Source of the DNA: Candidatus Gottesmanbacteria bacterium RIFCSPLOWO2_01_FULL_42_22
Lineage (GTDB): Bacteria > Patescibacteriota > Microgenomatia > 2-02-FULL-39-11
DNA: 64,000 nucleotides
Direction: 5' to 3'
Assembly (NCBI GenBank): GCA_001779315.1
Contig: MFJU01000006.1
Coordinates: 2,612-66,611 of the forward strand
Shown in pieces: positions 6,140 to 62,449 of this stretch. The notes beneath the pieces were generated by a model. That model was not told the origin of the DNA. It did no database searches and saw nothing but the letters and a program-made list of their open reading frames with translations. Both the position numbers and the translations under genes were made by a program. Each line of letters opens with the position of its first letter. The first letter of the stretch is position 1.

Positions 6140-6168
6140 GTTGACAGTTGTGGATAACTTTTCTACGA
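6140..6168 (+). promoter_or_regulatory. dnaA promoter (-35 TTGACA, 17-nt spacer, -10 TACGAT) with a perfect DnaA box (TGTGGATAA, 6149-6157) inside the spacer
   Basis: Read directly from the sequence. A DnaA box overlapping the dnaA promoter is the classic autoregulatory arrangement. Confidence 0.55.
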
Positions 6169-6179
6169 TGTGGAAATCT

Positions 6180-7521
6180 TATGGACTCTTCAAATCTTTG
6201 GCAAACTGTTCTGGCCGACCTCCAACTCCAAGTCAGTAAAGTTGTCTTTCAAACCCTGATCTCCCAAACCTCTTTGGAAGTCTTAAATGAAACAGAAGCC
6301 GTCATCAATTGCCATAATCCTATGCTGATCAATTTAATTGAAAAACGCTACCAGACCCTGATTAAAGAAACATTAAAACATTACACTCAAAAAGACCTGA
6401 ATCTGACATTCAGAGCTTTACGGAAAAAAAGCAACGGTGATCATATCGACGGTCCTTTATTCCGCGCAAAAACAGCTGTTTACGAAATACCTGTTAATAT
6501 AGAGAGATTAAACAAAGATTATACTTTTGCTAACTTTGCCGTTTCCTCGACCAACCAAATGGCTTATGCTGCCGCTACAGCTGTCTCTAAAACACCCGGT
6601 TTGTCCTATAATCCCCTTTTCCTCTACGGCAGCACCGGGGTGGGGAAAACCCATTTAATGCAGGCGATTGGCCATTCAGTCCAGGAAAATAATCCCAGGT
6701 TGAAAATGATTTTCTCGACCGGGGAGGAATTCACCAATGAAATCATAGAGGCAATTTCCAATAAAACCACCACCTCTTTTAAAAAAAAATACCGCCGGGT
6801 GGATCTTTTGATGATTGATGATGTCCAATTTATAGCCGGTAAATATTCTATCCAGGAAGAATTTTTCCATACTTTCAACGCTGTCTATCAGGCTAAAAAA
6901 CAAATAGTCATTACCAGCGACCGGCCGCCTGAGGAGATTGACAAGCTGGAAGCGAGACTCAGATCCCGTTTTGAAGGGGGCTTAACTATCGATATCGGCG
7001 CGCCTGATTTTGAACTGAGAACCGCCATCCTCCTTATTAAAGCTAAACAGCGCAGGGTTGACTTGCCGATTGAAGCAGCCAAACTCTTGTCTGCTAATAT
7101 TGAAAACCCCAGGAAATTAGAAGGTATCCTTATAAGAGTTATCAGTGAATCCCAAATTAAGGATATTCCGCTTGATAGTGAACTGGTCAAGTCTGTCCTG
7201 GGAAAAACTCTTAAAATACCGCCAAAAGAAAAAATCTTTGAGCCTGAGGAAGTTGTCAGGGCTGTCTCTTCCTTTTATAATTTAAAAGTCTCCGAGTTAA
7301 AAGGGGGTAAGAGAGACAAAATCTTCAGTCTCCCTAGGCAAATTCTTTACTATATATTAAGAACAGAAGTCGGCACGGGTTTAGCTGAAATCGGAGAACT
7401 CCTCGGGGGGAGGGATCACACGACTGTTCTTTATGGGGTAAGAAAAATCAGTGATCTTATCGGCAGTGATGAAAAAATCCGTGTTGATATCGTGGGGATA
7501 AAAAACCAGCTTTCTGGATAA
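6180..7521 (+). CDS. dnaA: Chromosomal replication initiator protein DnaA
   Basis: Walker A GSTGVGKTHL, AAA+ domain and C-terminal DNA-binding domain. Start set at ATG 6180 (MDSSNLW...) because the track start at 6148 lies inside the promoter/DnaA box. Confidence 0.9.
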
Positions 7522-7537
7522 AGATTTAGTTAACAAC

Positions 7538-7716
7538 TTATCCACTAAAAAACAAAATTTATCAACATAAGAATACACATTAATAAAAGGCTGTTATACA
7601 CAGGAAAAATTAACTATTTGGAGCTTGTTGACTGTTAGGGCTAAATTAACTACACTTATCAACACTTTCTAATACTACTAATACTATAAAAGATATAAGG
7701 ACTTAATAAAAAGAGC
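7538..7716. promoter_or_regulatory. Candidate oriC: cluster of DnaA-box-like 9-mers plus an AT-rich unwinding region in the dnaA-dnaN intergenic spacer
   Basis: ttatccact (7538-7546), ttatcaaca (7559-7567), ttatacaca (7594-7602), ttatcaaca (7657-7665), followed by the very AT-rich tract ctaatactactaatactataaaagatataagg. Confidence 0.6.
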
Positions 7717-8826
7717 ATGAAAATATTAATTTTAAAAGAGAATCTTGTAAGAGCTTTATCGATTGTAGGAAAAGGGATTTCCCTAAGACCTCAATTACCT
7801 ATTCTGTCTCACATTTTACTCAAGGCTGCCAAAAACCGTCTGGAGTTTTTATCTACTAATTTGGAATTGGGAATTATATACCAAACTTCAGCCAAAATCG
7901 AAAAAGAAGGAGAAGTAGCAGTACCGGGAAAACTCCTGACGGAATTTATTAATTCATTAGCAGCGGACAAATTGGAAATTACGGCAACTGATAAAAGCCT
8001 GGAAATAAAAACAGAGACAAGCCGCGCCTCCTTTGCTATCGGTAACCCGGCTGACTTCCCCATTTTTCCCCAAACTGTTGCTTTTGACCGGAAGTTGCCC
8101 TTTTCAAAAATCAAAGATTCAATTATCCGTATGGCTTTTGCCGCATCTACCGACGAAGGCCGCCCCGTACTGACAGGGGTCAGGACCAGAATCACAGATG
8201 GAAAACTGTCGATGTCGGCAACCGACGGCTACCGTTTATCCAAAGAAGAAGTCGTTGTCATGGGAAAAAACGAGACCCTGGAAGTTATCATTCCCGCCCA
8301 ATCACTTTTGGAAGTCGTCAGAATTGCCCAGGAACTTAAAACAGAAGAACTGGGTATTTCCATTATTGAAAATAAAAACCAGGTAGTCTTTTCCCTACCC
8401 GATACCAAAATATACAGCCGGCTTATAGACGGCGAATTTCCCAATGTGGAAAAAATTATCCCCGACAGTTTTAAGACCAGAGTCATTCTGGACAAAGAGT
8501 TGTTTTTCCAAGCCGTCAAAACAACTTCTATTTTTGCCCGGGGAGCGGCCAATATCATCAAAATAAAAATCGAGAAAGAAGGGGTCAGGCTTTCAGCCAA
8601 CACTCCTCAAGTCGGTGAAGAAACTGATTATATTGAAGCCAAAATTGAAGGGGAAGAAAGCGAAGTGGCTTTTAATTTCCGTTTTTTACTGGATCTTCTC
8701 AATAACTTTCCGGAAAAAGAACTGGTTTTTGAATCCTCGGGACCTCTCTCTCCGGGTGTTTTTAGACCGAAAACGGATGAAATTTCATTTCTTCACATCA
8801 TTATGCCGGTCCGCGTCCAGGGGTAG
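7717..8826 (+). CDS. dnaN: DNA polymerase III beta sliding clamp
   Basis: 369 aa, DnaN-like three-domain length, directly after dnaA. Confidence 0.85.
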   Translation: MKILILKENLVRALSIVGKGISLRPQLPILSHILLKAAKNRLEFLSTNLELGIIYQTSAKIEKEGEVAVPGKLLTEFINSLAADKLEITATDKSLEIKTETSRASFAIGNPADFPIFPQTVAFDRKLPFSKIKDSIIRMAFAASTDEGRPVLTGVRTRITDGKLSMSATDGYRLSKEEVVVMGKNETLEVIIPAQSLLEVVRIAQELKTEELGISIIENKNQVVFSLPDTKIYSRLIDGEFPNVEKIIPDSFKTRVILDKELFFQAVKTTSIFARGAANIIKIKIEKEGVRLSANTPQVGEETDYIEAKIEGEESEVAFNFRFLLDLLNNFPEKELVFESSGPLSPGVFRPKTDEISFLHIIMPVRVQG

Positions 8827-10449
8827 ATCAACTAAGCGGTAATTAATGTCCAGGCGTTCTTTTTCAAAGGCAACCCAGGAGGCAGAATTATTTATCAGAT
8901 TTAAATTTTTTTCCTCAAAATTCTTCCAGGCAATATAGCGGCTGTTTCGGTAAAAAGCCATATCAGCCGGCACCGGTTCCACACCGACAAGCTGTGTACT
9001 GCCTGAATTTTTAATAAACATAAAAACAACTATTCCAGCGACTACATATACTGCAAATTTAGCAGCTGATAAAGTTAGTTTTAAAGCTGCTTCGTCCAGA
9101 CCCAGAGCTTGAATGATAGCCAAAGCTCCATTCCCTAAAAAAGGGACGACAAAAGCTAATGCTTGTTCTGCCAGTTTAAGTCCTGCTTTAGTGATAGCTT
9201 TAGTCGCTAATTTCCTAACTGCAGCTTCCGCCATGGCTTTAATCCGGCTGATAATTTGATGCATTATTGCTGCAACTATCTGCTGCATGATATTTGCCGC
9301 CAGGTTTTGCATATCAGCCATGTTAGAAACAAACGAAGATAAGGTTTTCCTAATTTTCGGTTTGCCTTGGCCAGGCGGTGGACCCCCCGGAGGTCCTTTG
9401 TGCTGACTGGTTATCTTCTCGGGCACCTTTTCCGCTAAAGGTTGATCGAATTTTGGTTTGGCTCCTTCCAGGACATTTTCAAAATGGGCTCCTTCAGCAA
9501 GGCCCCCTGAAAGGGCTGATAAATCGAATTCAGGTTTTGCCGCTGGAGGTTTGGCGATTTCTTTTTCAGCTTCTTTTCTTTTTGCCGCTTGTCCTGCCTC
9601 TGACTGAATCAACTGTTCTTCCGTTATACCTTCTGCAAAACCGGCTGCCAGTTTCTCCTCGGGGATTTTTCCTTCATAAATATAATCCAGTCTCGACTTT
9701 AATTGTTCTTCGGTTAATCTGGTATTTTGCGGATCAAGGGTATCGTGTTTAAGAACGCCTTCTGCCTTTTCAAAAATGCCTGCTTCTGTTACCCTGGCGA
9801 TTGCTTCTTCCCGGGCGGTTAAGAGGTCGTTTTTTAGTGCCCGTTCGGCTTTACCGTCAGCTTTTTTACCCTCTTTATTGCACTGGTCATGGTATATTTT
9901 TTTTGCCTGGCGGGAAAGTTCATCATCGATTGAGGCACGGGGATTTTTCTCCCGCCATTCGGAAAGCCCCTTTTTCAGCTGTTGGGAATTCTCGTCACTT
10001 AAAGTGAAACGGTCAATCGCTTTCTCTGTCTTGATTGATTCTTCCAGCCGTGCGGTATGCTGGTGGACGTGTTGGGCAATTTTAATCGCTGTACCCACAC
10101 GATCGTATCTATCCCTGGTGACTTCCCCTTTAAATCTGAAAAAAGCAAATTTGGTAGAATCTTTCTTTTTATTTTTTAGTCGGCGGCCGATTAATGCATG
10201 ACTGTCGATGACTCTTTGAAGTTCATGCGGATTCCGAAGATTCAACAATCGCTGATGGATGTTTTCGTCACTGATAGTTTTAAACGCTTTCTTGGTATCA
10301 TCAGTATATTTATATCCTCCTGCGCCTCCGGCAATTGTTAGTTGTATAAGGGAAGCCCAGGTTGCGGAATCCCGCTGGTCGAGGTCAAATCCCTGTTTTT
10401 CTTCTTCCGCAGTTTCCGGAGTAGACTTACCGTGTCCGGCTGTGTTCAT
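8785..10449 (-). CDS. Hypothetical protein with C-terminal TM segments, part of a T4SS-like gene cluster
   Basis: 554 aa; charged/coiled N-terminal two-thirds, Gly/Pro-rich linker (GPPGGPPPGQGKP), hydrophobic C-terminal segments; co-directional with and directly downstream of the VirB4-like ATPase. Confidence 0.35.
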   Translation of the reverse strand: MNTAGHGKSTPETAEEEKQGFDLDQRDSATWASLIQLTIAGGAGGYKYTDDTKKAFKTISDENIHQRLLNLRNPHELQRVIDSHALIGRRLKNKKKDSTKFAFFRFKGEVTRDRYDRVGTAIKIAQHVHQHTARLEESIKTEKAIDRFTLSDENSQQLKKGLSEWREKNPRASIDDELSRQAKKIYHDQCNKEGKKADGKAERALKNDLLTAREEAIARVTEAGIFEKAEGVLKHDTLDPQNTRLTEEQLKSRLDYIYEGKIPEEKLAAGFAEGITEEQLIQSEAGQAAKRKEAEKEIAKPPAAKPEFDLSALSGGLAEGAHFENVLEGAKPKFDQPLAEKVPEKITSQHKGPPGGPPPGQGKPKIRKTLSSFVSNMADMQNLAANIMQQIVAAIMHQIISRIKAMAEAAVRKLATKAITKAGLKLAEQALAFVVPFLGNGALAIIQALGLDEAALKLTLSAAKFAVYVVAGIVVFMFIKNSGSTQLVGVEPVPADMAFYRNSRYIAWKNFEEKNLNLINNSASWVAFEKERLDINYRLVDLPLDADRHNDVKK

Positions 10450-10459
10450 ATGATTTTAA

Positions 10460-12415
10460 TTATACACTTTGGATTTGAGGCATATTGGCAGGCAATGGTT
10501 TTTCCTGCTTCATTTCACCGGGTTTGGAGGTTGCCAGTTGGTATTCCTGGGCGGAGGCGATAAATTGGACGGCAGCATGTGAAGCACCGGCAAAAAACAG
10601 GCCTTCCCCCACCCCGGCTGATAAGAGAAAGTGCTTTTCCCCGCTTGACAGATAAAAAACTTCAGCCAGTTTATCAATAGCTGCCGTTGACTGTTTAAGA
10701 AGCACCTGCAAACTGGAATTGGTGATGATGGCTTTGCCGTGGTCGGTCGACAGGAAATCTTCCACATCTTGCGTGATGGTGGTCACCCCTAAATAATATT
10801 TTCTGGCCCTTTTGGCAATGCTGTAAAGAAAAGTGGCAGAATCAGGATGCTTCATCAGGTACCAGGCCTCATCAACCACCAGGATTCTTTTTTTGACCTC
10901 CCTTTTGATTTTCGTCCAGATAAAGTCAAGAATGGAGAAAATGGCCATCGGCCTCAATTCCGCTTCCAGTTCTTTGATATTAAAAACCGTCAAGGCATTT
11001 TTTAAATGCAGATTGGACTGTTGGTTGAAAATACCTGCCAAAGATCCCTTAACAAATTTTTCGAGGCGTTCTGCCAATCTGCGGGCGTTCTCTTCTTCCA
11101 TGCCCAAAAGGACTTTATATAAATCTTCCATCAGGGGCGGTTCCCTTTTTTGGGTTTCTGGATCAGGTGTTATCCCCTTCTGTTTATAGGTGGATACCAA
11201 TGCTTTGTCCAAAAGGGCATCCTCGGTAGGGTTTAATTCTCCCATGATCACTCTCATTAGGCCGTGAAGCGAAAGGATTTTTAAGCCCAATTCGTTTTCC
11301 CCCTCAGATACAATCCCCGAAAGATCAAAAGGATTGATCTTAACGGGTGAATTGAAGGAAAAATCCAATTGGTCTCCTCCCAATGTTTTGGTGATATCCG
11401 TGTATTCGCCTTCAGGATCAATGACAAAGACGTCGGTGCCGAACATTAAAGTACGCATGACTTCCAGTTTGACCAGAAAGGATTTGCCTGAACCGGATTT
11501 GCCGAAGATGACGCTGTTGCTGTTTTCCAGAGAGAAGCGGTTGAAAATTACCAAAGAACCGTCATGCTCGTTGATCCCGTAAAGGATGCCTTCATTAGCG
11601 GTAAGGGAGGCTGTTGTGAATGGAAAAGTGGTAGCCAGTGATGTTGTGTCCATGTTTCTGGTTATATCCAGCTTGTCGAGAGACATAGGTAAGGTCGATT
11701 TGAAACCGTCTTCCTGGGAAAGGGTGGCGTGCTTGGGGACAATCAGTAAAGAGCCCAGGGTTGACTCAACTTCCTTTGATGATCTGTTCAGCTCTTCTAT
11801 AGTATCTGCCGGGATAGAAACATAGAGAGAAAACTGGTAAAATCTTTCAGCGCCTTTTGCCAGTTGGGATTGAAGGGCTAGAGCGTCATCGAGTGAGACC
11901 TGGACTGACGGATCAATAACTTTGCCTCTTTTCATATCGACCTGAATGGTGGCCTCCATTTCAGCGATTTTCCTTTTGAGGTCTTCTAATATCACTTTTG
12001 ATTCAGCGGGGTAAATATACATGGAAATAAAAAGCGATTTGTCAAAAGACAATAATGGGTGAAGCCAGTTGGAAGCTACATATCTGGGATAACCGGCTAC
12101 GAACAAGGTGCGGTAAAAAGTATTATTGACTCTGATGTTGTCAAAATCAACTTCGACGAGAGAAGGAGCGATAATATCGCGGATATTGACCAATCCTTTG
12201 GTCAATTTTTGTTTGGCCTCCAAGAGCTGATTGCTTTTAGCAGTATTGGCGGCCCGGTTATTGACAACCGCATGACTGATTACCGGCTGAACTGGCTGGC
12301 CTACTGTTTGCAGATTCGGTTTAACACCGGGTTGAACCGGCTGAAGTGGTTGGACTGCCGCCACCGGTTTAGGAAGGATTGAAACAGGCGCTTTTTTTTT
12401 AGAAAATAAGGACAT
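10460..12415 (-). CDS. virB4: VirB4/TrbE/CagE-family type IV secretion ATPase
   Basis: 651 aa; Walker A VIFGKSGSGKSFLV and Walker B RILVVDEAWYLM; overall VirB4 architecture. Confidence 0.7.
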   Translation of the reverse strand: MSLFSKKKAPVSILPKPVAAVQPLQPVQPGVKPNLQTVGQPVQPVISHAVVNNRAANTAKSNQLLEAKQKLTKGLVNIRDIIAPSLVEVDFDNIRVNNTFYRTLFVAGYPRYVASNWLHPLLSFDKSLFISMYIYPAESKVILEDLKRKIAEMEATIQVDMKRGKVIDPSVQVSLDDALALQSQLAKGAERFYQFSLYVSIPADTIEELNRSSKEVESTLGSLLIVPKHATLSQEDGFKSTLPMSLDKLDITRNMDTTSLATTFPFTTASLTANEGILYGINEHDGSLVIFNRFSLENSNSVIFGKSGSGKSFLVKLEVMRTLMFGTDVFVIDPEGEYTDITKTLGGDQLDFSFNSPVKINPFDLSGIVSEGENELGLKILSLHGLMRVIMGELNPTEDALLDKALVSTYKQKGITPDPETQKREPPLMEDLYKVLLGMEEENARRLAERLEKFVKGSLAGIFNQQSNLHLKNALTVFNIKELEAELRPMAIFSILDFIWTKIKREVKKRILVVDEAWYLMKHPDSATFLYSIAKRARKYYLGVTTITQDVEDFLSTDHGKAIITNSSLQVLLKQSTAAIDKLAEVFYLSSGEKHFLLSAGVGEGLFFAGASHAAVQFIASAQEYQLATSKPGEMKQEKPLPANMPQIQSV

Positions 12416-12421
12416 ATAAAA

Positions 12422-13090
12422 TTAGATACCTTCAACTAAAGGCTTGCTATAACCGATTGCTTCCCCCAATTTTTCACCGATTAAAGTCGGATTATAAATA
12501 TTATAAAAAAGCTCAACCAATTCCTGGGTCGGCAGCTGTCGGCCTTTAAGTCCGATCCTGCCTAATTGTCTTAAAATATGATCCCTTTTAGGATAAAGGG
12601 AGGTTTTGGCTCGGGAGAGGATATAATCCTTGGCAAAGGGGAGTTTTTTCTTTTTTCCGGATACAGAGAAAGCTTCTTTGATGCCTAATTCCAGGGGTGA
12701 AAAGGGCACAACCAGGTAGAATTTTTTTTCCAAAACCCTGTTTTCCTTAATAGTAGAAAGGATGAATTCACGGTAAGTACGAATTCTGTCCCTGATTACC
12801 GGATTCGGCTGCTTTGTTTCTTCCTGGACAATGTAGTCAATATAGGAGGAAATATCCATTCTTTTGGAAAGAATAACCACCTGCAGGGGAAAAGAGAGTG
12901 AATTTAAAAAAGAAGCATAAGCGTAAATAAGCGCATCCTGTTCATCTTCGGACAAAAGGCCGAAATTGACCGCTGTGGTTTCCAGAAGGACCGCCGCACC
13001 TGCCGTCCTTAAGATCAAAATATCATCAATAATATCCTCAATGTCCAGAAAATCCTGGGTGCTGGCTCTGATAGGCGCTGAATTTTGCAT
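12422..13090 (-). CDS. Hypothetical protein (T4SS-cluster associated)
   Basis: 222-aa ORF between the PrgI-like gene and virB4; no recognisable motif. Confidence 0.3.
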   Translation of the reverse strand: MQNSAPIRASTQDFLDIEDIIDDILILRTAGAAVLLETTAVNFGLLSEDEQDALIYAYASFLNSLSFPLQVVILSKRMDISSYIDYIVQEETKQPNPVIRDRIRTYREFILSTIKENRVLEKKFYLVVPFSPLELGIKEAFSVSGKKKKLPFAKDYILSRAKTSLYPKRDHILRQLGRIGLKGRQLPTQELVELFYNIYNPTLIGEKLGEAIGYSKPLVEGI

Positions 13091-13140
13091 TAAAAAAAGA
13101 CTTACCTATTATCCAATCAAGCGATAAACAAATCAACTGA

Positions 13141-14376
13141 TCAGATTCCGGGATTACTAAAAAGTTCTTTATTTAATTGTTCGCGGATTTGCTCTTTTTC
13201 TCCTTTGGCGCTGATTTCAATCGGGAGAAAAATTTTTCCCTCGAGATTGATTTCTGCGATATCAAAAGTATATCTTTTTAAAGGATCTTCAGCTTCCACA
13301 TAATATGTACCGTTTTGCAAGGGTGTGGCCGTCGAGAATTGTCCCAGGCGGTTGGTTTTTAAGGCGCGGTGAGGATTACCTTTGGTGTCTTTTATGGTCA
13401 GTATGATATTGGGCAACAATTTTTTACTGCTGTCTTTAATGATTCCCATAATAATATTGGGTGCTTGGGGCAATTTCGGGATACCGATTTCGTTTACAGC
13501 GCTTCTCGGGGTTACTGTTTTGATGGTTGGTTTGGCTGCCTCTTTTTCTTCTTTCGGTTTAATGATGGCCGCAGCAGATGTTTTAGCAAGCTCATCTTTC
13601 AGTTTTATTAATTCTTCTTCCAGTTTTTCTTTTTCCTCTCTCAAATTTATTATTTTATCTTCCTCTGCCGGTGGCCTACTTACAGGGAGGGAGACGGGTT
13701 TGACAGCGGGGATTGTTGTTTGAGCGGGAGGTGGAGAAGGAGTTTGTTGTAAGGACGCTACAGGAGGTTTAAGCGGTGCGACAGAAATAACAGGTTTTAT
13801 TTGAGGTTGAAAGGTGGCTGTCAATTTAGGCGGCTGGACAATGGTTGATTGAGGCATCGAAGGTTGAAAATTAGCCGCTAAGGTAGCGGCAGTTGTGGCA
13901 AAAAGCTGCATAGTTTGATCGACATAGTGTTTTTCCCTGATATTTATTTGCTGATAGGGTTGGGCGGGCAGGGACTGAAGATAATTTTCCAGTTTTTTTT
14001 TAGCATCGACATGAGCTTCCTGGTGATTTTGCGGCAGGACTTTTGTTTGGGCATTATAAGCATAGGCCAGAATATCCGGCATATCTTCGACCTTTTGCCA
14101 GAGGTATTGCGTCGGCGACAGAATGCTTTTGATAAAAGCGACAATCCATTTGTCCAGTGGCCTTTCTTGAATGGGCAGGAAAGCAAAGGCAAAGCCGGAT
14201 AAAACTGCGGCTCCGATAATCGGATATGACAAAAGAGGAGGCAAGGGTAAAGTCTTATAAAGGATAAAACCGATGATGAAACCGCTAATTAAATAGCCGA
14301 ATTGCCTTACCGTCATGTCCCCGATGAGATGGAATTGAAAACTGGAAATATTTCTGGGTATAGGGTGTTGCTCCAT
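13141..14376 (-). CDS. PrgI-like (VirB3-analogue) two-TM N-terminal domain fused to a long coiled-coil/Pro-rich extension and a C-terminal globular domain
   Basis: N-terminus DMTVRQFGYLISGFIIGFILYKTLPLPPLLSYPIIGAAVLSGFAFAFLPIQERPLDKW matches the PrgI-family pattern (T-RQ, two TM helices, G-PLD-W); 411 aa in total. Confidence 0.45.
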   Translation of the reverse strand: MEQHPIPRNISSFQFHLIGDMTVRQFGYLISGFIIGFILYKTLPLPPLLSYPIIGAAVLSGFAFAFLPIQERPLDKWIVAFIKSILSPTQYLWQKVEDMPDILAYAYNAQTKVLPQNHQEAHVDAKKKLENYLQSLPAQPYQQINIREKHYVDQTMQLFATTAATLAANFQPSMPQSTIVQPPKLTATFQPQIKPVISVAPLKPPVASLQQTPSPPPAQTTIPAVKPVSLPVSRPPAEEDKIINLREEKEKLEEELIKLKDELAKTSAAAIIKPKEEKEAAKPTIKTVTPRSAVNEIGIPKLPQAPNIIMGIIKDSSKKLLPNIILTIKDTKGNPHRALKTNRLGQFSTATPLQNGTYYVEAEDPLKRYTFDIAEINLEGKIFLPIEISAKGEKEQIREQLNKELFSNPGI

Positions 14377-14536
14377 AGGCCTTAATTAAGGGTATGATGT
14401 GAAAAATATGGTTTCAACTACTTCATTAGTGGTCAGATTACTACTTAACTGGATTATCTTTTGTGAAATGTAGACCTTCAGGGTCGCGAGAGTCGGGATT
14501 GACATAAACCTTTAAAAAATGTTTTACTAAGAGGTA

Positions 14537-19256: not shown

Positions 19257-19279
19257 GATTGGCTTTTTTTATACTTGTC

Positions 19280-21022: not shown

Positions 21023-21114
21023 ATATTGTTACTATTACATAACATACACCCAATATCAACGCAGATAGCAGATTGGTTGATAGGTGAAGGTGGGTGTGTT
21101 ATCTTTGATGTAAC

Positions 21115-32812: not shown

Positions 32813-33657
32813 TGGACAGGGAACGCTTAACCATTACTCTTAAAAAATCAATTCTTGAAAAAGTCGATCATATTATTGACGGCAGTCAGATCCGCAACCG
32901 CTCTCACGCCATTGAAACCCTGATTAGTAGAAGCCTCAATCCGACTATTGACAAGGCTGTCATTTTAGCCGGAGGCAGAGGCATTAATATGAGGCCTTTT
33001 ACTTTTGAGATGCCCAAAGGCCTTTTCCCGGTAGGCGGTAAACCCATTCTGGAACAGTTGATTGAACTTTTGAGAAAGTATGAAATCAGAAATATTCTTT
33101 TTTCCATAGGCCACCTGGGAGAAAAAATAGAGGAGTATTTCGGCGACGGCCGGAAATTCGGGGTCAATATTGAATATATTAAAGAGAAAGAAGAGGCGGG
33201 AACAGGCGGAGCTTTGGTGCTGGCTAAAAAATACTTAAACAACGATTCATTCCTGGTAGTTCACGGCGATATTCTGATCGATATCAACCTCAACGACATG
33301 ATAGCTTTCCATAAAAATAATGAAGCATTAGGCACAATAGCAGTGACGACTGTTCTTGACCCTTCTTCATACGGAGAGATAATCATGAATGGCACCAAAA
33401 TCACCCAATTTATCGAAAAACCGCAAAAAGGCAAGCAGAAATCCCAATTGATAAGCTGCGGTTTATATATTCTGGAAAAGGGCATTTTTTCTTATCTGCC
33501 GAAAAAAGGCCCCTCTCAGCTGGAAGATATTTTTGCCAAACTGGCTTCAACCGCCCAATTATCCGCTTTTCCTTTCAGCGGCCGCTTCTTGGATATCGGT
33601 ACGCCTAAATCCTATGAAAAAGCCATTAAAGAGTGGGGAAGTGTTAAAGCAGCGTAG
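32812..33657 (+). CDS. Ribbon-helix-helix (CopG-like) domain fused to a sugar-phosphate nucleotidyltransferase domain
   Basis: N-terminus RLTITLKKSILEKVDHII... (RHH beta-strand and helices), then ILAGGRGINMRPFTFEMPKGLFPVGGKPIL (NTP_transferase G-x-G-x-R motif); 281 aa. Confidence 0.5.
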   Translation: MDRERLTITLKKSILEKVDHIIDGSQIRNRSHAIETLISRSLNPTIDKAVILAGGRGINMRPFTFEMPKGLFPVGGKPILEQLIELLRKYEIRNILFSIGHLGEKIEEYFGDGRKFGVNIEYIKEKEEAGTGGALVLAKKYLNNDSFLVVHGDILIDINLNDMIAFHKNNEALGTIAVTTVLDPSSYGEIIMNGTKITQFIEKPQKGKQKSQLISCGLYILEKGIFSYLPKKGPSQLEDIFAKLASTAQLSAFPFSGRFLDIGTPKSYEKAIKEWGSVKAA

Positions 33658-33994
33658 GCAGTATTAATTTTATCGCCCCGCCAAAGCCGTCCGACATACC
33701 TAAAAACTGCAGAAGAACAATAAAGATAGCCCAGGAGGCAAAGACGATGACCAAACCCATAACGGCATGCAGTATTTTCTGCTGTGCTGTCTCCAGCTTG
33801 CCCTTGTCTCCTCCTGAGGAGATCCAGTTGAAAGCTCCCAAAAGCAGATTGACAAAAGCCCAGATAGTCGCTGCCACCAACAGAAGACCGATGAAGCCGG
33901 AAACAAATTTGCCGAGAATTTGCGGAGCTTTTTCCGGATCTTTTAATGAAGGAACGGCCGGATTGACGATTTGAGCTAGAAGTTCCCTTTTCAT
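33644..33994 (-). CDS. T4SS-pilin-like small two-TM protein (paralog 1 of 4)
   Basis: 116 aa; TM1-AGFNWISSGGDKGK-loop-TM2 architecture shared with the next three ORFs. Confidence 0.5.
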   Translation of the reverse strand: MKRELLAQIVNPAVPSLKDPEKAPQILGKFVSGFIGLLLVAATIWAFVNLLLGAFNWISSGGDKGKLETAQQKILHAVMGLVIVFASWAIFIVLLQFLGMSDGFGGAIKLILPTLL

Positions 33995-33997
33995 GTT

Positions 33998-34393
33998 TTA
34001 TTTTATTTTTAAATTCTGCAGCATGGCTCCCGGATCAAGAATATTTATGCCCAGCACTTTTCCGATTAAGGCTACAAAAACCCAGGCAAAGATGACAATA
34101 ACCAACCCGATTACGGCATTAGTCATTTTCTGCCTGGCGGCTTGAGTGTTATTTTTGTCACCTCCGGCGCTGATCCAGTTGAAGCCGGCAATTATAAATT
34201 GGATCATGAACCAGATAGCAGCTACAATGGTCAGAAAGCCCAATACTGTACTGAGGATTTTATTAAGTATGTTGCCGGTTTCCTGAGCGGTATCTGCCTG
34301 TCCGCTGCAGAGAAGTTTGGCAATCGGTCCCAGACCTTCGCCGCCGCCGATACAATCGTCAGCCCGGACAACTTCAGGAAAAAAAAAATTCAT
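33998..34393 (-). CDS. T4SS-pilin-like small two-TM protein (paralog 2 of 4)
   Basis: 131 aa; IIAGFNWISAGGDKNNTQAARQKMTNAVIGLVIV, conserved with paralog 1. Confidence 0.5.
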   Translation of the reverse strand: MNFFFPEVVRADDCIGGGEGLGPIAKLLCSGQADTAQETGNILNKILSTVLGFLTIVAAIWFMIQFIIAGFNWISAGGDKNNTQAARQKMTNAVIGLVIVIFAWVFVALIGKVLGINILDPGAMLQNLKIK

Positions 34394-34743
34394 GGTGCGA
34401 TTTTTAACTGCGGTTTCAGTAATGCTGTCGGGCCGTCAAAAAAGATGATGCCGATAATGGCAGCGATGAGGAATGAGGCCACCATGATTAAAAGTCCGAT
34501 AAATGACCAGTAAATTTTCGCCCAGGCAGAAGAGACTTTTTTGGGATCGCCGCCGGCTGCGATGAAGCCTATGCCGGCAATGACGATATTAAACAAAGCC
34601 CAGATGCCTCCGACAATCAGCAAAAGACGCAGAAAGGTATTCAAAAGGACTGTAATTCCGACAAATTTGCCCGTCGGATCGATGGCCTGAGGCAAGCCTT
34701 CCGGTGGTGTCACTTTACCGATAATATCTAACGGGTCAGCCAT
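34390..34743 (-). CDS. T4SS-pilin-like small two-TM protein (paralog 3 of 4)
   Basis: 117 aa; IAGIGFIAAGGDPKKVSSAWAKIYWSFIGLLIMV, conserved with paralogs 1 and 2. Confidence 0.45.
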   Translation of the reverse strand: MADPLDIIGKVTPPEGLPQAIDPTGKFVGITVLLNTFLRLLLIVGGIWALFNIVIAGIGFIAAGGDPKKVSSAWAKIYWSFIGLLIMVASFLIAAIIGIIFFDGPTALLKPQLKIAP

Positions 34744-35051
34744 TAAAATAATCCTTTCATGGAATTAAAGGAAACATAATTAATGATCTGCAGTATCCAG
34801 TATGAGGCAAAAATCAGGATAAGGCCGATCACAGAATAGGTTAAAAATGATTTTGCCCTTTCCGCTCCCTGGGGATCTCCCGAATTGCCCGAAGACACCA
34901 CGGCAAAACCGGCGATAAAAACTAAAATAAAAAAAATGACACCGGCGATAAGCAGGATGTTCGGTAAAAACGAGGATACCAATGAGGCTAATGTGGGAAA
35001 GTTTAAAGCAGGAGCATATTTATCTTCTATTCTGACCTGGGCAAGCTGCAT
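34743..35051 (-). CDS. T4SS-pilin-like small two-TM protein (paralog 4 of 4, more divergent)
   Basis: 102 aa; FIAGFAVVSSGNSGDPQGAERAKSFLTYSVIGLILI, same architecture. Confidence 0.4.
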   Translation of the reverse strand: MQLAQVRIEDKYAPALNFPTLASLVSSFLPNILLIAGVIFFILVFIAGFAVVSSGNSGDPQGAERAKSFLTYSVIGLILIFASYWILQIINYVSFNSMKGLF

Positions 35052-55717: not shown

Positions 55718-55724
55718 TAACTTG

Positions 55725-59071: not shown

Positions 59072-59076
59072 AAAAA

Positions 59077-60100: not shown

Positions 60101-62449
60101 ATGGATATGTATGAGCCAACATTATTATACGATTCTCTCCTGAATCTTGGTTTCACTTTTACTATTCTGATTTTAGTATTATTCGGGCTCGCTCTTTTTA
60201 CCTATTTCATTTTTCTATGGTGGAAGTACCGAAACCGCGAGAAACAGAGTTTGGAATTTGTGCTTTTGCAGATATGCGTACCAAAGGATAATGAGGTAAA
60301 AATTGATGCTGCAGAACAATTTTATTCCTCACTTTCCTCCCTGTCCCACGGCGGCTTTCTCTCTTTCATGAAAGATAAGGACCATATTTCTTTTGAAATC
60401 GTCGGCCGTCCCGGAGATATCCGCTTTTATGTCTCCGTCCATCACCATTTGCGGGATCTTATCGAAAAACAGATTTACGGTATGTACCCGGGAGCGGAGA
60501 TTAAAGAAGTGGATGAATATAATATTTTTGATGAAAAGGGCAAAGTGGCTTTTGCTTCATTTATTTTAAAAGGCTCGGATTATTTGCCGATGAAGACATT
60601 TAAAGATCTGCCGGTTGATCCGATGTCAGCCATCACCTCAAATTTAGGCAAAATGCAGGCCGGTGAGGGAGCGGCAATTCAAATTTTGGTGACTCCTGCC
60701 GCAGGCAAGTGGAAGAGTTCCGGAAAAAGTTATCTTTCAGGAGTGAAAAAAAACGAGGCTAACCCGGAAAAAGCGCATTATAACGTCGACCATAAAATCC
60801 TGGAAACCATAGAAAACAAATTAGCCAAACCGGGTTTCTTAACGACGATCAGAGTAGTTGTTTCCTCAACCACGTTGGAATCCGCCAAGATGCATCTTCA
60901 TAATATCGAATCGGTTTTTGCTCAATTTTCCTCAGACCAAAACCATTTAGGGGGAGCCAAACTCATGTTCAAAAGTTCATTCGTCATCGATTTCATTTAC
61001 CGTTATTTTCCCATCCTTAATTGGCCTTATAAACAGTACAGTGTTTTAACCAGCGAGGAATTGGCGACCCTTTTCCATTTTCCCAATAAAAGTGTGGAAA
61101 CCCCCCACATTCAATGGGTAACTTCCAAAAGGGCACCGGCACCGCCGGAAATTCCCACCTCCGGGCTTTATCTGGGTAAAAGCACTTACCGGGGCATTTC
61201 CAGACCGATCCATATGGATTTGGATGACAGACGCCGCCATGTATATATTATCGGTAAAACGGGGGTAGGCAAATCGGTCCTTTTGAAAGACATGATCCTT
61301 CAGGATATTAAAGAGGGCAAAGGTGTAGCGGCTATCGATCCCCACGGGGATTTAGTTGAGGGAATTTTACCGATGATACCGCCTGAAAGGGCTGAAGATG
61401 TTATCTATTTTGACCCTTCAGATACCGACAGGCCGATGGGGTTGAATATGCTTGAAGCCAAGACTGAAGAGCAAAAACACTATATCGTCTCATCAATCAT
61501 CGGCTTGATGTATAAACTTTACGACCCCCAGAAAACCGGTATTATCGGACCCAGATTTGAACATGCCATCAGAAATGCCATGCTGACAATTATGGTTGAA
61601 CCGGGCGCTTCTTTCGTCGAGGTGGTCAGAGTTTTAACCGATTCAGCTTACGTACAGGAACTGCTGCCGAAAGTCCAGGATCCGATTGTCAGAAGGTATT
61701 GGACAGACCAGATCGCCCAGACATCCGATTTCCATAAATCTGAAGTATTGGATTATATCGTTTCCAAATTCGGCCGTTTCGTCACCAACAAACTGATGCG
61801 TAATATCATCGGACAAAGTAAAAGCGCCTTTGATTTCCGCAAAGTTATGGATGAAGGTAAGATTCTTCTGGTTAATCTGGCCAAAGGAAAATTAGGCGAG
61901 GAGAATTCATCCTTTTTGGGATTGATAATGGTGCCGAAGATATTGGTTGCGGCCATGAGCCGGGTGGATACACCGGAAGAGCAGCGCCGGGATTTTTTCC
62001 TTTATGTTGACGAATTTCAGAATTTCGCCACACCCGATTTCGCCCAGATTCTGTCCGAAGCCAGGAAATTCCGCCTTAATCTTTGCGTGGCCAACCAGTT
62101 TATCGGCCAGATGGAAGAAGAAGTAAAGAATGCTGTTTTCGGCAATGTCGGCACACTGGTGACCTTCCGGGTGGGAGTGACTGATGCCAATTATCTCCAG
62201 CATTGGTTTACACCTGTTTTCAATGAGAACGACCTGATCAACGTCGACGTCTATAATGCCTATATCAATACCATTATCAGCAATAAACCGGTACCGCCTT
62301 TCTCGGTTGATTTGCGCAAAGATATGGCTGAGTTTAAAAAGCTGGAAAACAAGCAGGTAGCCAAAGCCATTCTGCAACTTTCGCGTCTCAAATACGGCCG
62401 ACCCCGGGAACTGGTCGAAGCCGAAATCTCCCAACGGGCTAAACTCTAA
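60101..62449 (+). CDS. VirD4/TraG-like type IV coupling protein (HerA/FtsK-superfamily ATPase with N-terminal TM anchor)
   Basis: N-terminal TM helices (ILILVLFGLALFTYFIFLWW); Walker A YIIGKTGVGKSVLLKDM; Walker B DFFLYVDEFQNFA; 782 aa. Confidence 0.55.
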   Translation: MDMYEPTLLYDSLLNLGFTFTILILVLFGLALFTYFIFLWWKYRNREKQSLEFVLLQICVPKDNEVKIDAAEQFYSSLSSLSHGGFLSFMKDKDHISFEIVGRPGDIRFYVSVHHHLRDLIEKQIYGMYPGAEIKEVDEYNIFDEKGKVAFASFILKGSDYLPMKTFKDLPVDPMSAITSNLGKMQAGEGAAIQILVTPAAGKWKSSGKSYLSGVKKNEANPEKAHYNVDHKILETIENKLAKPGFLTTIRVVVSSTTLESAKMHLHNIESVFAQFSSDQNHLGGAKLMFKSSFVIDFIYRYFPILNWPYKQYSVLTSEELATLFHFPNKSVETPHIQWVTSKRAPAPPEIPTSGLYLGKSTYRGISRPIHMDLDDRRRHVYIIGKTGVGKSVLLKDMILQDIKEGKGVAAIDPHGDLVEGILPMIPPERAEDVIYFDPSDTDRPMGLNMLEAKTEEQKHYIVSSIIGLMYKLYDPQKTGIIGPRFEHAIRNAMLTIMVEPGASFVEVVRVLTDSAYVQELLPKVQDPIVRRYWTDQIAQTSDFHKSEVLDYIVSKFGRFVTNKLMRNIIGQSKSAFDFRKVMDEGKILLVNLAKGKLGEENSSFLGLIMVPKILVAAMSRVDTPEEQRRDFFLYVDEFQNFATPDFAQILSEARKFRLNLCVANQFIGQMEEEVKNAVFGNVGTLVTFRVGVTDANYLQHWFTPVFNENDLINVDVYNAYINTIISNKPVPPFSVDLRKDMAEFKKLENKQVAKAILQLSRLKYGRPRELVEAEISQRAKL

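What the first reader, a model, noticed from the sequence alone, without database searches (positions are those of the whole stretch)
8785..14376. Minimal T4SS-like module abutting dnaN/oriC: PrgI-like fusion protein, 222-aa unknown, VirB4 ATPase, 554-aa unknown
Four co-directional minus-strand genes start 0.1 kb from the origin region and their 3' end overlaps the end of dnaN by 42 nt. VirB4 is clear (Walker A/B). The first gene has a PrgI/VirB3-like two-TM N-terminus, but this is fused to a ~300-aa coiled-coil/Pro-rich/globular extension, which is unusual for PrgI (~120 aa). The other two proteins have no recognisable homology. Elsewhere in the window there are four pilin-like paralogs (33.6-35.1 kb) and a VirD4-like ATPase (60.1-62.4 kb), so the parts of a conjugation/competence-like apparatus are dispersed rather than clustered. 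In CPR such systems are suspected to mediate DNA uptake or host attachment rather than conjugation.
Basis: partly seen in the sequence, partly recalled or inferred. Interest (0 to 1): 0.6.

Follow-up and report, generated by a model that had tools for sequence, protein, structure and literature searches.

The report
Known CPR type IV secretion core
This is the chromosomal type IV secretion ATPase/membrane core that Patescibacteria keep next to dnaN and dnaA, a system already described in 2025; one "unknown" gene is the split-off N-terminal part of VirB4, and the other is a fast-evolving, clade-specific membrane protein.

Summary
Four tightly packed minus-strand genes (13141-14376, 12422-13090, 10460-12415, 8785-10449) end 42 nt inside dnaN. 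The window comes from Ca. Gottesmanbacteria RIFCSPLOWO2_02_FULL_42_29.

- **Gene 1** is a PrgI/VirB3 protein with a ~320-aa extension. The extension is a Pro-rich linker, a long helix and a confident transthyretin/CnaB-like beta-sandwich.
- **Gene 2** is not an orphan. It is TrsD, the N-terminal part of VirB4 encoded separately. Together with gene 3 it is colinear with one 754-aa Firmicutes VirB4.
- **Gene 3** is a CD1110-family VirB4.
- **Gene 4** has no known family or fold. It belongs to a small family confined to one Gottesmanbacteria subclade. It sits where sister lineages carry a membrane-anchored M23/CHAP cell-wall hydrolase, or nothing at all.

Four VirB2-like pilin genes and a VirD4-like gene lie elsewhere in the window. 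No relaxase was found.

The system, its TrsD component, the dispersed coupling protein, the pilin arrays, the missing relaxase and the dnaA/dnaN proximity were all published (PMC12102498), and this genome is in that dataset. What I did not find described is the Microgenomatia-wide long PrgI and the variable slot after virB4. Verdict: already known, with modest residual interest.

The parts
13141..14376 (-). Long PrgI/VirB3 homologue, 411 aa (gene 1)
   Evidence: Pfam PrgI 4.3e-9, above the gathering score. At least 449 mostly full-length homologues, which NCBI names 'PrgI family protein'. 410 species-level genomes across Microgenomatia.
14104..14364 (-). PrgI domain (residues 5-91), including the TM hairpin (residues 23-66, nt 14179-14310) and the conserved post-TM helix 73-86
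   Evidence: Pfam match. AF2 helices 23-42 and 47-66 have pLDDT above 90. K+R counts in flanks versus loop fit an N-in/C-in topology.
13669..13884 (-). Pro-rich disordered linker (residues 165-236). The wider inter-domain region (window residues 161-284) spans 80-210 aa across the family.
   Evidence: AF2 pLDDT below 50. Length range and 15% Pro.
13573..13665 (-). Long charged helix (residues 238-268), possible coiled coil
   Evidence: AF2 helix 238-268; sequence EEDKIINLREEKEKLEEELIKLKDELAK.
13159..13524 (-). C-terminal beta-sandwich, transthyretin / CarboxypepD_reg / CnaB-like (residues 285-406)
   Evidence: AF2 pLDDT 91-97. Foldseek against PDB gives E 2e-5 to 1e-4 to carboxypeptidase D transthyretin-like domains, CnaB2 and SdrD B. 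Weak Pfam PF13620 hit. Mean net charge +4.5.
12422..13090 (-). TrsD / TraC-like protein, 222 aa: the N-terminal part of VirB4 as a separate polypeptide (gene 2)
   Evidence: NCBIfam TrsD 1e-5, plus matches to N-terminal positions of VirB4 models. A 99%-identical cluster carries PF26593, and there are 1780 homologues. Residues 28-199 align to residues 28-175 of a 754-aa Carboxydocella VirB4, E 1e-13.
10460..12415 (-). VirB4 ATPase, CD1110 family, lacking the extreme N-terminal part (gene 3). Walker A at nt 11480-11503, Walker B at nt 10868-10885. Residues 1-63 are a P/Q/V-rich low-complexity stretch.
   Evidence: NCBIfam 1.4e-120, matching model positions 129-730. PDB 4AG5 at 2.6e-43. Residues 64-637 align to residues 171-749 of the 754-aa VirB4, E 8e-78. 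Motifs located.
8785..10449 (-). Gene 4 ('X'), 554 aa: orphan membrane protein with an acidic N-terminus, a helical ~270-aa domain, a Pro-rich linker, a Gly/Ala/Lys-rich amphipathic stretch, a TM (nt 9001-9078) and a twin W..FE...L tail (nt 8851-8928)
   Evidence: No Pfam or NCBIfam hit and no PDB sequence hit. AF2 mean pLDDT 46, and Foldseek found nothing. The family has 73 cluster representatives. Architecture is conserved. It lies between virB4 and dnaN only in about 16 close Gottesmanbacteria loci.
8785..8826 (.). 42-nt convergent overlap of gene 4 with dnaN
   Evidence: Overlaps of 30-45 nt occur in L003, L005, L009, L012, L013, L016, L019 and L051.
14377..14536 (.). 160-nt divergent intergenic region shared with the ClpC-like gene; presumed promoter region of the operon
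   Evidence: Position only. The consensus promoter scan was not above chance.
33644..35051 (-). Array of four VirB2-like T4SS pilin paralogues (116, 131, 117 and 102 aa)
   Evidence: PF18895 hits for three of them. All four hit NF045849, the Mbov_0395 pilin-like family, at 3e-10 to 4.5e-4. Three of the four are detectably similar to each other at about 38% identity; the fourth was not included in that comparison. ORFs listed.
60101..62449 (+). VirD4-like coupling protein, 782 aa, with an N-terminal TM and Walker A GKTGVGKS at residue 385
   Evidence: PF10412 scores 28.6 bits (cutoff 20.5). NCBIfam TraD and CD1115 partial matches. Motif and TM.
7493..7664 (.). Context: DnaA-box cluster in the AT-rich dnaA-dnaN spacer (oriC candidate)
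   Evidence: 6 boxes with at most 1 mismatch within 172 nt. Window-wide there are 36 matches against 14.9 expected. Sequence shown.

Best explanation
The locus is the vertically inherited chromosomal core of the Patescibacteria-type (MPF-FATA-derived) type IV secretion system of a Gottesmanbacterium. Its parts and likely mechanism are as follows.

- **Membrane anchor (shown by homology).** Gene 1 is the VirB3/PrgI hairpin that tethers the VirB4 motor to the membrane.
- **Split motor (shown by homology and colinearity).** Genes 2 and 3 together make up one VirB4 ATPase split into two polypeptides. TrsD supplies the extreme N-terminal part. In solved diderm systems the VirB4 N-terminal domain contacts VirB3. 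The 651-aa protein supplies the rest of the N-terminal domain and the P-loop motor.
- **Assembly (inferred).** PrgI binds TrsD and VirB4 at the cytoplasmic face. The hexameric motor energises assembly of the VirB2-like pilins encoded 20 kb away and/or substrate passage. The distant VirD4-like protein may or may not feed it.
- **PrgI extension (inferred).** The extra ~320 aa of PrgI follow the cytoplasmic post-TM helix with no further hydrophobic segment. The basic beta-sandwich on its long Pro-rich tether is therefore most likely cytoplasmic, acting as a docking or recruitment module at the base of the machine.
- **Gene 4 (inferred).** It is a clade-specific membrane protein with a single strongly hydrophobic segment near its C-terminus (one or two TM helices). 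It occupies the slot where sister lineages and Firmicutes relatives encode a membrane-anchored VirB1-like peptidoglycan hydrolase. It lacks any hydrolase domain, so it is probably an accessory or scaffold subunit, and less likely a substrate.
- **Role (inferred).** The machine serves the host-dependent lifestyle rather than conjugation.
For: - **Family assignments.** PrgI scores above the Pfam gathering score and VirB4 above the NCBIfam cutoff. TrsD hits the TrsD model and the N-terminal positions of VirB4 models.
- **Split VirB4.** One 754-aa Carboxydocella VirB4 aligns by residues 28-175 to the 222-aa protein (1e-13) and by residues 171-749 to the 651-aa protein (8e-78). The same split, with a short 116-aa PrgI, two pilins, a TrbL/VirB6-like protein and an M23+NlpC/P60 hydrolase, occurs in a Pontibacillus plasmid cluster.
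- **Conserved order.** PrgI-long, TrsD and VirB4 are contiguous in nearly all of the 80 Microgenomatia loci that extend far enough, usually followed by dnaN-dnaA.
- **Purifying selection.** Across four Gottesmanbacteria, TrsD is 71-89% and VirB4 71-85% identical. DnaN is 58-87% and DnaA 58-78%.
- **Not conjugative.** No relaxase or other mobile-element gene is in the 64 kb; the rest is housekeeping.
- **PrgI topology.** K+R counts are 2.1 (N flank) and 4.1 (C flank) against 1.0 (loop), and there is no third hydrophobic helix. The reviews state that VirB3 termini are cytoplasmic and that PrgI binds VirB4 1:1 (PMC12857230).
- **Slot 4.** It holds M23- or CHAP-bearing proteins with one or a few TM segments in other Microgenomatia, and nothing in Chisholm-, Beckwith-, Woese- and Collierbacteria.
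- **Literature.** The same system, TrsD, dnaA/dnaN proximity, pilin arrays, distant T4CP and absent relaxase are reported in PMC12102498. This genome is in their table. PrgI, TrsD, VirB4 and the pilins are essential in Southlakia (as cited there).
Against: - No VirB6-like or VirB8-like protein was found in the window, so the membrane channel is unaccounted for here. It may lie elsewhere in the genome.
- Gene 4 has no detectable homology to any T4SS component or to the hydrolase-type slot-4 proteins. Its link to the T4SS rests only on operon position and a 10-nt gap.
- The cytoplasmic location of the PrgI extension is a topological inference. Pro-rich linker plus CnaB-like domain is also the classic layout of wall-spanning surface proteins.
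- Nothing here tests function. The role of the system is unknown even in cultured Saccharibacteria.
Confidence: 0.85

Rival explanations
1. The four genes are a remnant or active part of an integrative conjugative element (a mobile conjugation module) that happened to insert beside dnaN.
For: VirB4 is closest to the CD1110 conjugative family of Firmicutes, and TrsD homologues sit on Firmicutes plasmids. A tyrosine recombinase lies at 50541-51446.
Against: - The same order next to dnaN-dnaA holds across a whole class, in 80 loci and several candidate phyla.
- TrsD and VirB4 are at least as conserved as DnaA and DnaN.
- There is no relaxase in the 64 kb.
- GC content is like the surroundings.
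- The recombinase is 36 kb away and has an XerC/D-like domain layout.
- PMC12102498 reaches the same conclusion.
Confidence: 0.03
2. The machine works inwards: it is a DNA or nutrient import apparatus (ComB-like or Ced-like) rather than an exporter of effectors or pili.
For: - VirB4 gives a weak hit to the archaeal DNA importer CedB (3.6e-17), and the VirD4-like protein to CedD (7.7e-7).
- There is no relaxase.
- The organism has to scavenge nucleotides.
- The idea is raised in PMC11665869.
Against: - The CedB and CedD hits are generic P-loop similarity, far below their cutoffs (62 against 700 bits).
- In Southlakia, competence (ComEC) is dispensable while the T4SS is essential, so the T4SS does not act through ComEC-dependent transformation (PMC12857230).
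- No sequence feature here indicates direction of transport.
Confidence: 0.15
3. Gene 4 (554 aa) is not a T4SS part at all, but an unrelated, fast-evolving lineage-specific membrane protein that merely occupies the variable gap between virB4 and dnaN.
For: - It has no homology to any T4SS component.
- It is only 20-44% identical among genomes whose VirB4 is 71-85% identical.
- The slot is empty in several Microgenomatia lineages.
- Another conserved-position orphan nearby (unk580) evolves just as fast.
Against: - A 10-nt gap and the same strand as virB4 suggest co-transcription.
- Wherever the slot is filled, it holds a membrane protein, often a VirB1-type hydrolase, with a similar overall layout: a large N-terminal region, a Gly/Ala-rich juxtamembrane stretch and a TM.
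Confidence: 0.25
4. Gene 4 is the missing, extremely diverged VirB6 (or VirB8) of Microgenomatia.
For: PMC12102498 notes that VirB6 homologues are scarce in Microgenomatia and suggests extreme divergence. Gene 4 is a membrane protein adjacent to virB4.
Against: - VirB6 proteins have four to six or more TM helices. The X family has a single strongly hydrophobic segment 35-85 residues from the C-terminus.
- It shows no similarity to the TrbL-like 779-aa protein of the Pontibacillus cluster.
- Neither the AF2 model (all helices, low confidence) nor the Foldseek search points to an NTF2-like VirB8 fold.
Confidence: 0.05

Closest known systems
Patescibacteria-clade T4SS (Quinonero-Coronel et al. 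2025, PMC12102498; essential in Ca. Southlakia epibionticum per Wang et al. 2023, as cited there)
   Same: PrgI/VirB3 + TrsD + VirB4 next to each other. VirB2-like pilin array. T4CP encoded far away. No relaxase. Location beside dnaN/dnaA/rnpA/rpmH, reported for Microgenomatia. This very genome is in their dataset.
   Different: That paper does not describe the ~320-aa PrgI extension. It reports VirB3 as poorly associated with virB4 in Microgenomatia (22.6%), whereas it was adjacent in essentially all 80 loci surveyed here. It does not describe the 554-aa family. In Southlakia, peptidase and lysozyme homologues follow virB4.
Firmicutes MPF-FATA clusters with split VirB4 (pGO1/pSK41 trsC-trsD-trsE type; Pontibacillus sp. 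ALD_SL1 plasmid NZ_CP062975 cluster)
   Same: Order VirB3-like, TrsD-like, then CD1110-family VirB4 lacking its N-terminal part. PF18895 pilin-like genes present. A membrane protein follows virB4.
   Different: There PrgI is 116 aa. A TrbL/VirB6-like protein and the pilins are in the same cluster. The gene after virB4 is an M23+NlpC/P60 hydrolase. Many such clusters are on plasmids, though most of the matched records, including this one, are typed non-mobilizable.
Unsplit VirB4 (Carboxydocella pCCELLA01, 754 aa; solved VirB4 C-terminal domain 4AG5)
   Same: Colinear over its whole length with the 222-aa plus 651-aa pair. The ATPase domain matches at 2.6e-43.
   Different: It is a single polypeptide. 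The window's VirB4 also has a 63-aa P/Q/V-rich N-terminal stretch at the split point.
VirB1-like T4SS cell-wall hydrolases of monoderms (PrgK, TraG; M23/CHAP proteins after virB4 in other Microgenomatia)
   Same: The same gene slot directly after virB4. A large N-terminal region, a Gly/Ala-rich juxtamembrane stretch and a TM.
   Different: The 554-aa protein has only a ~70-aa tail after the TM and no hydrolase domain. No sequence homology was demonstrable.

Membership tests
VirB4 T4SS ATPase (CD1110 / MPF-FATA type) | Curated family model matched above its cutoff | tested here: met
   NF045971 scores 403.8 bits against a cutoff of 325, E 1.4e-120.
VirB4 T4SS ATPase (CD1110 / MPF-FATA type) | Walker A and Walker B motifs, and a C-terminal domain like solved VirB4 | tested here: met
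   GKSGSGKS at 305-312 and ILVVDE at 511-516. PDB 4AG5 at 2.6e-43.
VirB4 T4SS ATPase (CD1110 / MPF-FATA type) | Complete N-terminal domain in the same polypeptide | tested here: not met
   The 651-aa protein matches model positions 129-730 only. The missing part is supplied by the upstream 222-aa protein. This is a split, not a loss.
TrsD / TraC-like (PF26593), the VirB4 N-terminal part as a separate protein | Homology to the N-terminus of full-length VirB4 and to TrsD models | tested here: met
   E 1e-13 to residues 28-175 of a 754-aa VirB4. NF041427 TrsD at 1e-5, below its curated cutoff. VirB4 model positions 129-233 and 27-119 matched. A 99%-identical cluster carries PF26593.
TrsD / TraC-like (PF26593), the VirB4 N-terminal part as a separate protein | Encoded immediately upstream of a VirB4 that lacks its N-terminal part | tested here: met
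   6-nt gap to virB4. The same arrangement occurs in nearly all of the 80 loci that extend far enough.
VirB3 / PrgI | PrgI family model above the gathering score, and a two-TM hairpin followed by a helix | tested here: met
   PF12666 scores 37.2 bits against 27. AF2 helices 23-42, 47-66 and 73-86.
VirB3 / PrgI | Small protein (10-15 kDa) with short cytoplasmic extensions | tested here: not met
   411 aa, with about 320 aa after the PrgI domain. The criterion is from PMC12857230. It is a long variant of the family.
VirB3 / PrgI | Gene adjacent to virB4 | tested here: met
   Separated from virB4 only by trsD; conserved in 80 loci.
VirB3 / PrgI | Physical 1:1 binding to the VirB4 N-terminal domain | not testable with these tools
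   Needs multimer modelling or biochemistry.
VirB6 | Polytopic membrane protein with 4-6 or more TM helices; TrbL/VirB6 or PrgH model | tested here: not met
   No such protein in the operon or window by Pfam. The 554-aa family has one strongly hydrophobic segment and no similarity to a TrbL-like protein.
VirB1-like hydrolase | Peptidoglycan hydrolase domain (SLT, CHAP, M23 or NlpC/P60) | tested here: not met
   None in the 554-aa protein or in 63 family members. Present in positional counterparts of other lineages.
VirB2-like T4SS pilin | PF18895 or TrbC model, and two hydrophobic helices in a protein of about 100-130 aa | tested here: met
   PF18895 scores 34.1 and 27.3 bits (cutoff 26.6), with 25.9 just below. 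All four hit NF045849. Two hydrophobic helices were detected in the three proteins scanned; the fourth shows the same layout by eye.
Type IV coupling protein (VirD4) | N-terminal TM, P-loop NTPase and TrwB/TraG-D domains | tested here: met
   PF10412 scores 28.6 against 20.5, and TraG-D_C 20.5 against 22, just below. TM at 8-43. GKTGVGKS at residue 385.
Conjugative system (MPF + relaxase + oriT) | Relaxase gene and oriT associated with the T4SS | tested here: not met
   No relaxase family in any window ORF. The rest of the genome is not available here. PMC12102498 finds relaxases in only 103 Patescibacteria genomes.

The most novel reading that the evidence does not exclude
In Microgenomatia the VirB3 subunit has acquired a new cytoplasmic module: a basic transthyretin-like beta-sandwich on an 80-210-aa Pro-rich tether with a coiled helix. 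The tether is long enough to reach around the VirB4 barrel. The module could act as a substrate or partner receptor at the base of the machine, perhaps taking over part of the coupling-protein role. The T4CP is unlinked here and was non-essential in Southlakia. The slot after virB4 would then be a fast-turnover position where a VirB1-type hydrolase has been replaced in one Gottesmanbacteria subclade by a hydrolase-less protein with a very acidic N-terminus, which could be that module's partner or a substrate.
Probability: 0.12. Interest if true: 0.6.

Novelty: already known. Interest (0 to 1): 0.3.

Why it matters
The system matters because a T4SS of this type is essential for epibiotic growth in the only genetically tractable Patescibacterium, and its function is still unknown. 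This locus adds nothing to the published catalogue at the level of 'a T4SS sits next to dnaN'.

Three details could guide structural or biochemical work:
- The motor here is demonstrably a two-piece VirB4.
- Its VirB3 anchor carries a conserved extra domain throughout Microgenomatia.
- The gene after virB4 is a variable slot: a hydrolase, a hydrolase-less orphan, or nothing. This bears on how these wall-bearing ultrasmall cells get a secretion machine through their envelope.

Tried and rejected
- **Identifying the 554-aa protein.** Pfam and NCBIfam on the protein gave nothing. Pfam on 63 family members gave only scattered single-member hits, none shared by two members. A family profile against PDB sequences returned only low-complexity noise. 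AF2 with a 5-sequence alignment gave mean pLDDT 46. Foldseek against PDB had no hit below E 0.5.
- **Profile comparisons for the 554-aa family.** No relation to a Firmicutes TrbL-like protein or an M23 hydrolase. Against the M23-type slot-4 family, hhalign gave probability 17%. N-terminal and C-terminal sub-profiles matched only the Gly/Ala-rich juxtamembrane stretch and TM, which is compositional. No paralogue exists among the window proteins.
- **Apparent VirB4 fusions.** Three relatives have VirB4 ORFs of 1223-1276 aa that looked like fusions with the downstream gene. They are inteins in the Walker A motif, not fusions.
- **Expression signals.** The promoter and terminator consensus scan of 8.4-14.7 kb was not above shuffled expectation.
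- **GC skew.** It is too noisy at this scale to place the origin. DnaA boxes were used instead.
- **Genome search with the 554-aa alignment.** It failed because no conserved stretch was long enough.
- **TrsD against PDB by sequence.** No meaningful hit.
- **ICE hypothesis.** Rejected on synteny, conservation and the absence of a relaxase.

Full report
**1. What is there**

The four minus-strand ORFs exist exactly as described: 13141-14376 (411 aa), 12422-13090 (222 aa), 10460-12415 (651 aa) and 8785-10449 (554 aa). Gaps between them are 50, 6 and 10 nt, so they are very probably one operon.

The last gene overlaps the convergent dnaN (7717-8826) by 42 nt. dnaA is at 6148-7521.

[quoted passage not shown] The window is therefore a CPR (Microgenomatia) chromosome.

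- The only oriC-like feature is a cluster of six DnaA boxes at 7493-7664, in the AT-rich dnaA-dnaN spacer. The whole window has 36 boxes with at most one mismatch against 14.9 expected.
- That cluster lies about 1.1 kb beyond the 3' end of the operon.
- The 5' end (14376) faces a divergent ClpC-like gene across 160 nt.

**2. The four proteins**

*Gene 3 is a VirB4.*
- NCBIfam CD1110 family: 403.8 bits against a cutoff of 325.
- Walker A at 305-312 and Walker B at 511-516.
- 2.6e-43 to the solved VirB4 C-terminal domain 4AG5.
- It matches VirB4 models only from about position 129 onwards.

*Gene 2 is the missing N-terminal part of VirB4.*
- It hits the TrsD/TraD model and the N-terminal positions of two VirB4 models.
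- It has 1780 homologues, and those listed carry PF26593 'TraC-like'.
- The decisive test used a single 754-aa VirB4 on the Carboxydocella plasmid pCCELLA01. Its residues 28-175 align to the 222-aa protein (E 1e-13), and its residues 171-749 align to residues 64-637 of the 651-aa protein (E 8e-78).
- Genes 2 and 3 are therefore one VirB4 in two pieces.

*Gene 1 is a long PrgI/VirB3.*
- It carries a bona fide PrgI domain: PF12666 at 37.2 bits against 27, residues 5-91.
- An AF2 model built on 113 homologues shows these elements:

| Residues | Feature | Confidence |
|---|---|---|
| 23-66 | TM hairpin | pLDDT above 90 |
| 73-86 | Conserved helix | pLDDT about 70-80 |
| 116-160 | Two further helices | mostly pLDDT above 80 |
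| 165-236 | Disordered Pro-rich linker | pLDDT below 50 |
| 238-268 | Long charged helix | pLDDT about 85-90 |
| 285-406 | Beta-sandwich | pLDDT 91-97 |

- Foldseek places the sandwich with transthyretin-like / carboxypeptidase-regulatory, CnaB and SdrD-B domains, at E 2e-5 to 1e-4.

*Gene 4 stays an orphan.*
- No Pfam or NCBIfam hit for the protein. Among 63 relatives there were only scattered single-member Pfam hits, none shared.
- No PDB sequence hit.
- The AF2 model is poor, with mean pLDDT 46. Foldseek found nothing.
- A profile search of 1.84 billion representatives found only 73 relatives, nearly all full-length ones 440-630 aa.
- They share a layout: a very acidic N-terminus, a helical domain of about 270 aa, a Pro-rich linker, a Gly/Ala/Lys-rich amphipathic stretch and one strongly hydrophobic segment 35-85 residues from the C-terminus. 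One or two W..FE...L motifs follow.

**3. Context in the window**

- Four VirB2-like pilin paralogues lie at 33644-35051.
- A VirD4-like coupling protein lies at 60101-62449.
- The other ORFs scanned are mostly housekeeping, with a few orphans: mevalonate pathway, penicillin-binding proteins, ribonucleotide reductase, MurB, UppS and others.
- No relaxase, VirB6, VirB8 or VirB1 family hit was found.

**4. Comparative evidence**

*Synteny.* Six loci from other Gottesmanbacteria show the same order. It runs large orphan, orphan, HExxH membrane protein, ClpC-like, then PrgI-long, TrsD, VirB4 and an orphan of 477-500 aa, followed by dnaN, dnaA, rpmH, rnpA, yidD, yidC and jag.

*Conservation.* Identity to the window proteins across four of these genomes:

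| Protein | Identity |
|---|---|
| TrsD | 71-89% |
| VirB4 | 71-85% |
| DnaN | 58-87% |
| DnaA | 58-78% |
| PrgI-long | 44-68% |
| Gene 4 | 20-44% |

The motor is thus under at least as strong constraint as the replication proteins. Gene 4 evolves very fast.

*Spread of the long PrgI.* A scan of one genome per species with the PrgI-long alignment found 410 genomes. The best 80 include Gottesman-, Chisholm-, Beckwith-, Woese-, Levy-, Collier- and Daviesbacteria. Nearly all matches run from residue 1 to at least residue 380, well into the C-terminal sandwich. The long PrgI is therefore a class-wide feature, not a local fusion.

*The slot after virB4.* In those 80 loci, PrgI-long, TrsD and VirB4 are contiguous in nearly all that extend far enough, and dnaN-dnaA usually follows. 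The slot between virB4 and dnaN varies:
- The gene-4 family appears only in about 16 close Gottesmanbacteria loci.
- Other Gottesmanbacteria have a 630-810-aa protein, mostly with one central TM and often a C-terminal Peptidase_M23 domain, usually plus a second protein with an N-terminal TM.
- Other lineages have ~900-aa M23 or CHAP proteins.
- In Chisholm-, Beckwith-, Woese- and Collierbacteria, virB4 abuts or overlaps dnaN directly.

*Firmicutes prototype.* A Pontibacillus plasmid carries two PF18895 pilins, a TrbL/VirB6-like protein, a 116-aa PrgI, a TrsD-like protein and a CD1110 VirB4. An M23+NlpC/P60 hydrolase follows.

The slot after virB4 is therefore the VirB1-hydrolase slot. Gene 4 fills it without a hydrolase domain. 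I could not show homology between gene 4 and the hydrolase-type proteins. hhalign gave probability 17%. Sub-profile searches matched only the compositionally biased juxtamembrane stretch and TM.

**5. How it most likely works**

*Shown by homology.* There is a VirB3-type membrane anchor and a two-piece VirB4 motor. Pilin and coupling-protein genes lie elsewhere.

*Inferred from solved diderm systems and reviews (PMC12857230).*
- The VirB4 N-terminal domain contacts VirB3, and PrgI is predicted to bind VirB4 1:1.
- I therefore infer that TrsD is the adaptor between PrgI and the ATPase body.

*Topology of the PrgI extension.*
- The PrgI flanks carry 2.1 and 4.1 K+R against 1.0 in the loop.
- There is no third hydrophobic helix.
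- The conserved post-TM helix must meet the cytoplasmic TrsD and VirB4.
- The extension, including the basic (+4.5) sandwich, is therefore most likely cytoplasmic. I put this at about 70%.
- The alternative is a wall-spanning, adhesin-like layout. It is suggested by the Pro-rich linker and CnaB-like fold, and it cannot be excluded without experiments.

*Gene 4.* It is most simply a clade-specific accessory membrane subunit. It could also be unrelated to the T4SS; I give that rival 0.25.

*Overall role.* Conjugation is unlikely. There is no relaxase, the module is vertically inherited, and it has a fixed chromosomal position. The true substrate and direction of transport are unknown.

**6. Comparison with the literature**

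Quinonero-Coronel et al. 2025 (PMC12102498) describe this system in detail:
- A Patescibacteria VirB4 clade derived from MPF-FATA.
- PrgI-type VirB3.
- T4CP mostly far from virB4.
- VirB2 arrays, especially in Microgenomatia.
- Almost no relaxases.
- Proximity to dnaN, dnaA, rnpA and rpmH in Microgenomatia and Paceibacteria.

Their genome table lists Gottesmanbacteria RIFCSPLOWO2_02_FULL_42_29 with 'Yes' in its last column, which I take to mean VirB4 detected. Reviews add that the Southlakia T4SS is essential for growth and that its role is unknown.

The finding is therefore already known.

I did not find three things described in the searchable literature:
- The conserved long PrgI with its beta-sandwich.
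- The variable slot after virB4, including the hydrolase-less family.
- Walker-A inteins in some VirB4 genes.

One discrepancy is worth noting. The paper reports that only 22.6% of Microgenomatia VirB3 homologues are near virB4. In the 80 loci surveyed here, the long PrgI sits next to trsD-virB4 in nearly every locus that extends far enough. The 80 loci were selected through PrgI itself, so this is not a contradiction of their count, only a different sample.

**7. Verdict**

The system is already known. Interest is 0.3, resting on the PrgI extension and the variable slot.

Noticed in passing
L028:8787-12617, L030:8838-12509, L033:9023-12727: Three Gottesmanbacteria relatives have VirB4 ORFs of 1223-1276 aa. 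The extra ~580 aa is an intein-like insertion inside Walker A (FGK|S(I/V)A...VFVHN|SG(S/G)GKS). The window's VirB4 has no such insertion.
   Followed up: partly
window 55721-55795 (+), with 55941-60085 and 60101-62449 downstream: An AdoCbl-II (B12) riboswitch scores 45.5 bits (gathering score 36.5). It precedes an 877-aa orphan, a DUF4430 protein, a DUF6580 (ECF-S-like) protein and a 152-aa orphan. That gene string runs to within 15 nt of the VirD4-like gene, so virD4 may be co-transcribed with a B12-regulated uptake operon. A B12-type ribonucleotide reductase and a cobalamin adenosyltransferase lie just upstream.
   Followed up: no
window about 16900-17760 (+), inside the ClpC-like gene 14537-18571: The 1344-aa ClpC/ClpB-like protein carries an insertion of about 300 aa within its second AAA module. 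By eye the insertion is four repeats of a ~40-aa motif (G.E.I...D..W......W....L.EYF). There is also a C-terminal CxxC...CxxC stretch and Pro-rich tails. Length varies from 963 to 1443 aa in relatives.
   Followed up: no
window 18561-25191; L001, L003, L005, L006 equivalents: A conserved-position trio lies upstream of ClpC in Gottesmanbacteria. It comprises a 1358-aa acidic coiled-coil orphan, a 580-aa orphan (18-24% identity between genomes) and a 231-aa polytopic membrane protein with an HExxH motif. None has a Pfam or NCBIfam hit.
   Followed up: partly
80 loci L009-L088, region between virB4 and dnaN: The gene slot after virB4 is highly variable across Microgenomatia. It holds the X family, M23- or CHAP-bearing membrane-anchored proteins, proteins with several TM segments of 416-911 aa (possible VirB6 analogues, for example L053 and L056), an ALK/LTK glycine-rich-domain protein (L081), or nothing.
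   Followed up: partly
window 6149-6157 and 6148-6181: The only perfect DnaA box (TTATCCACA, minus strand) overlaps the TTG taken as the dnaA start. The true start is probably the ATG at 6181 (MDSSNLWQ...), which would put the box in the dnaA promoter/leader.
   Followed up: no
window 62500-62574 (+): The only tRNA in the window is tRNA-Ile with anticodon UAU, an uncommon way for bacteria to read AUA.
   Followed up: no
L007 (Pontibacillus plasmid NZ_CP062975) 5195-14748: A Firmicutes cluster carries two PF18895/Mbov_0395 pilin-like genes in the same operon-like string as a VirB6-like protein, PrgI, a TrsD-like protein, VirB4 and a hydrolase. VirB2-like pilins therefore accompany split-VirB4 MPF-FATA systems outside Patescibacteria too. 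This bears on the published suggestion that the pilins were co-opted from diderm systems.
   Followed up: partly
Record titles of L013, L017, L019, L021-L028 and others: Many third-party-assembled MAG records that carry this Microgenomatia-type locus are titled 'uncultured Gammaproteobacteria' or 'Pseudomonadales', and one 'Bathyarchaeia'. These look like mislabelled taxonomy in the public records.
   Followed up: no
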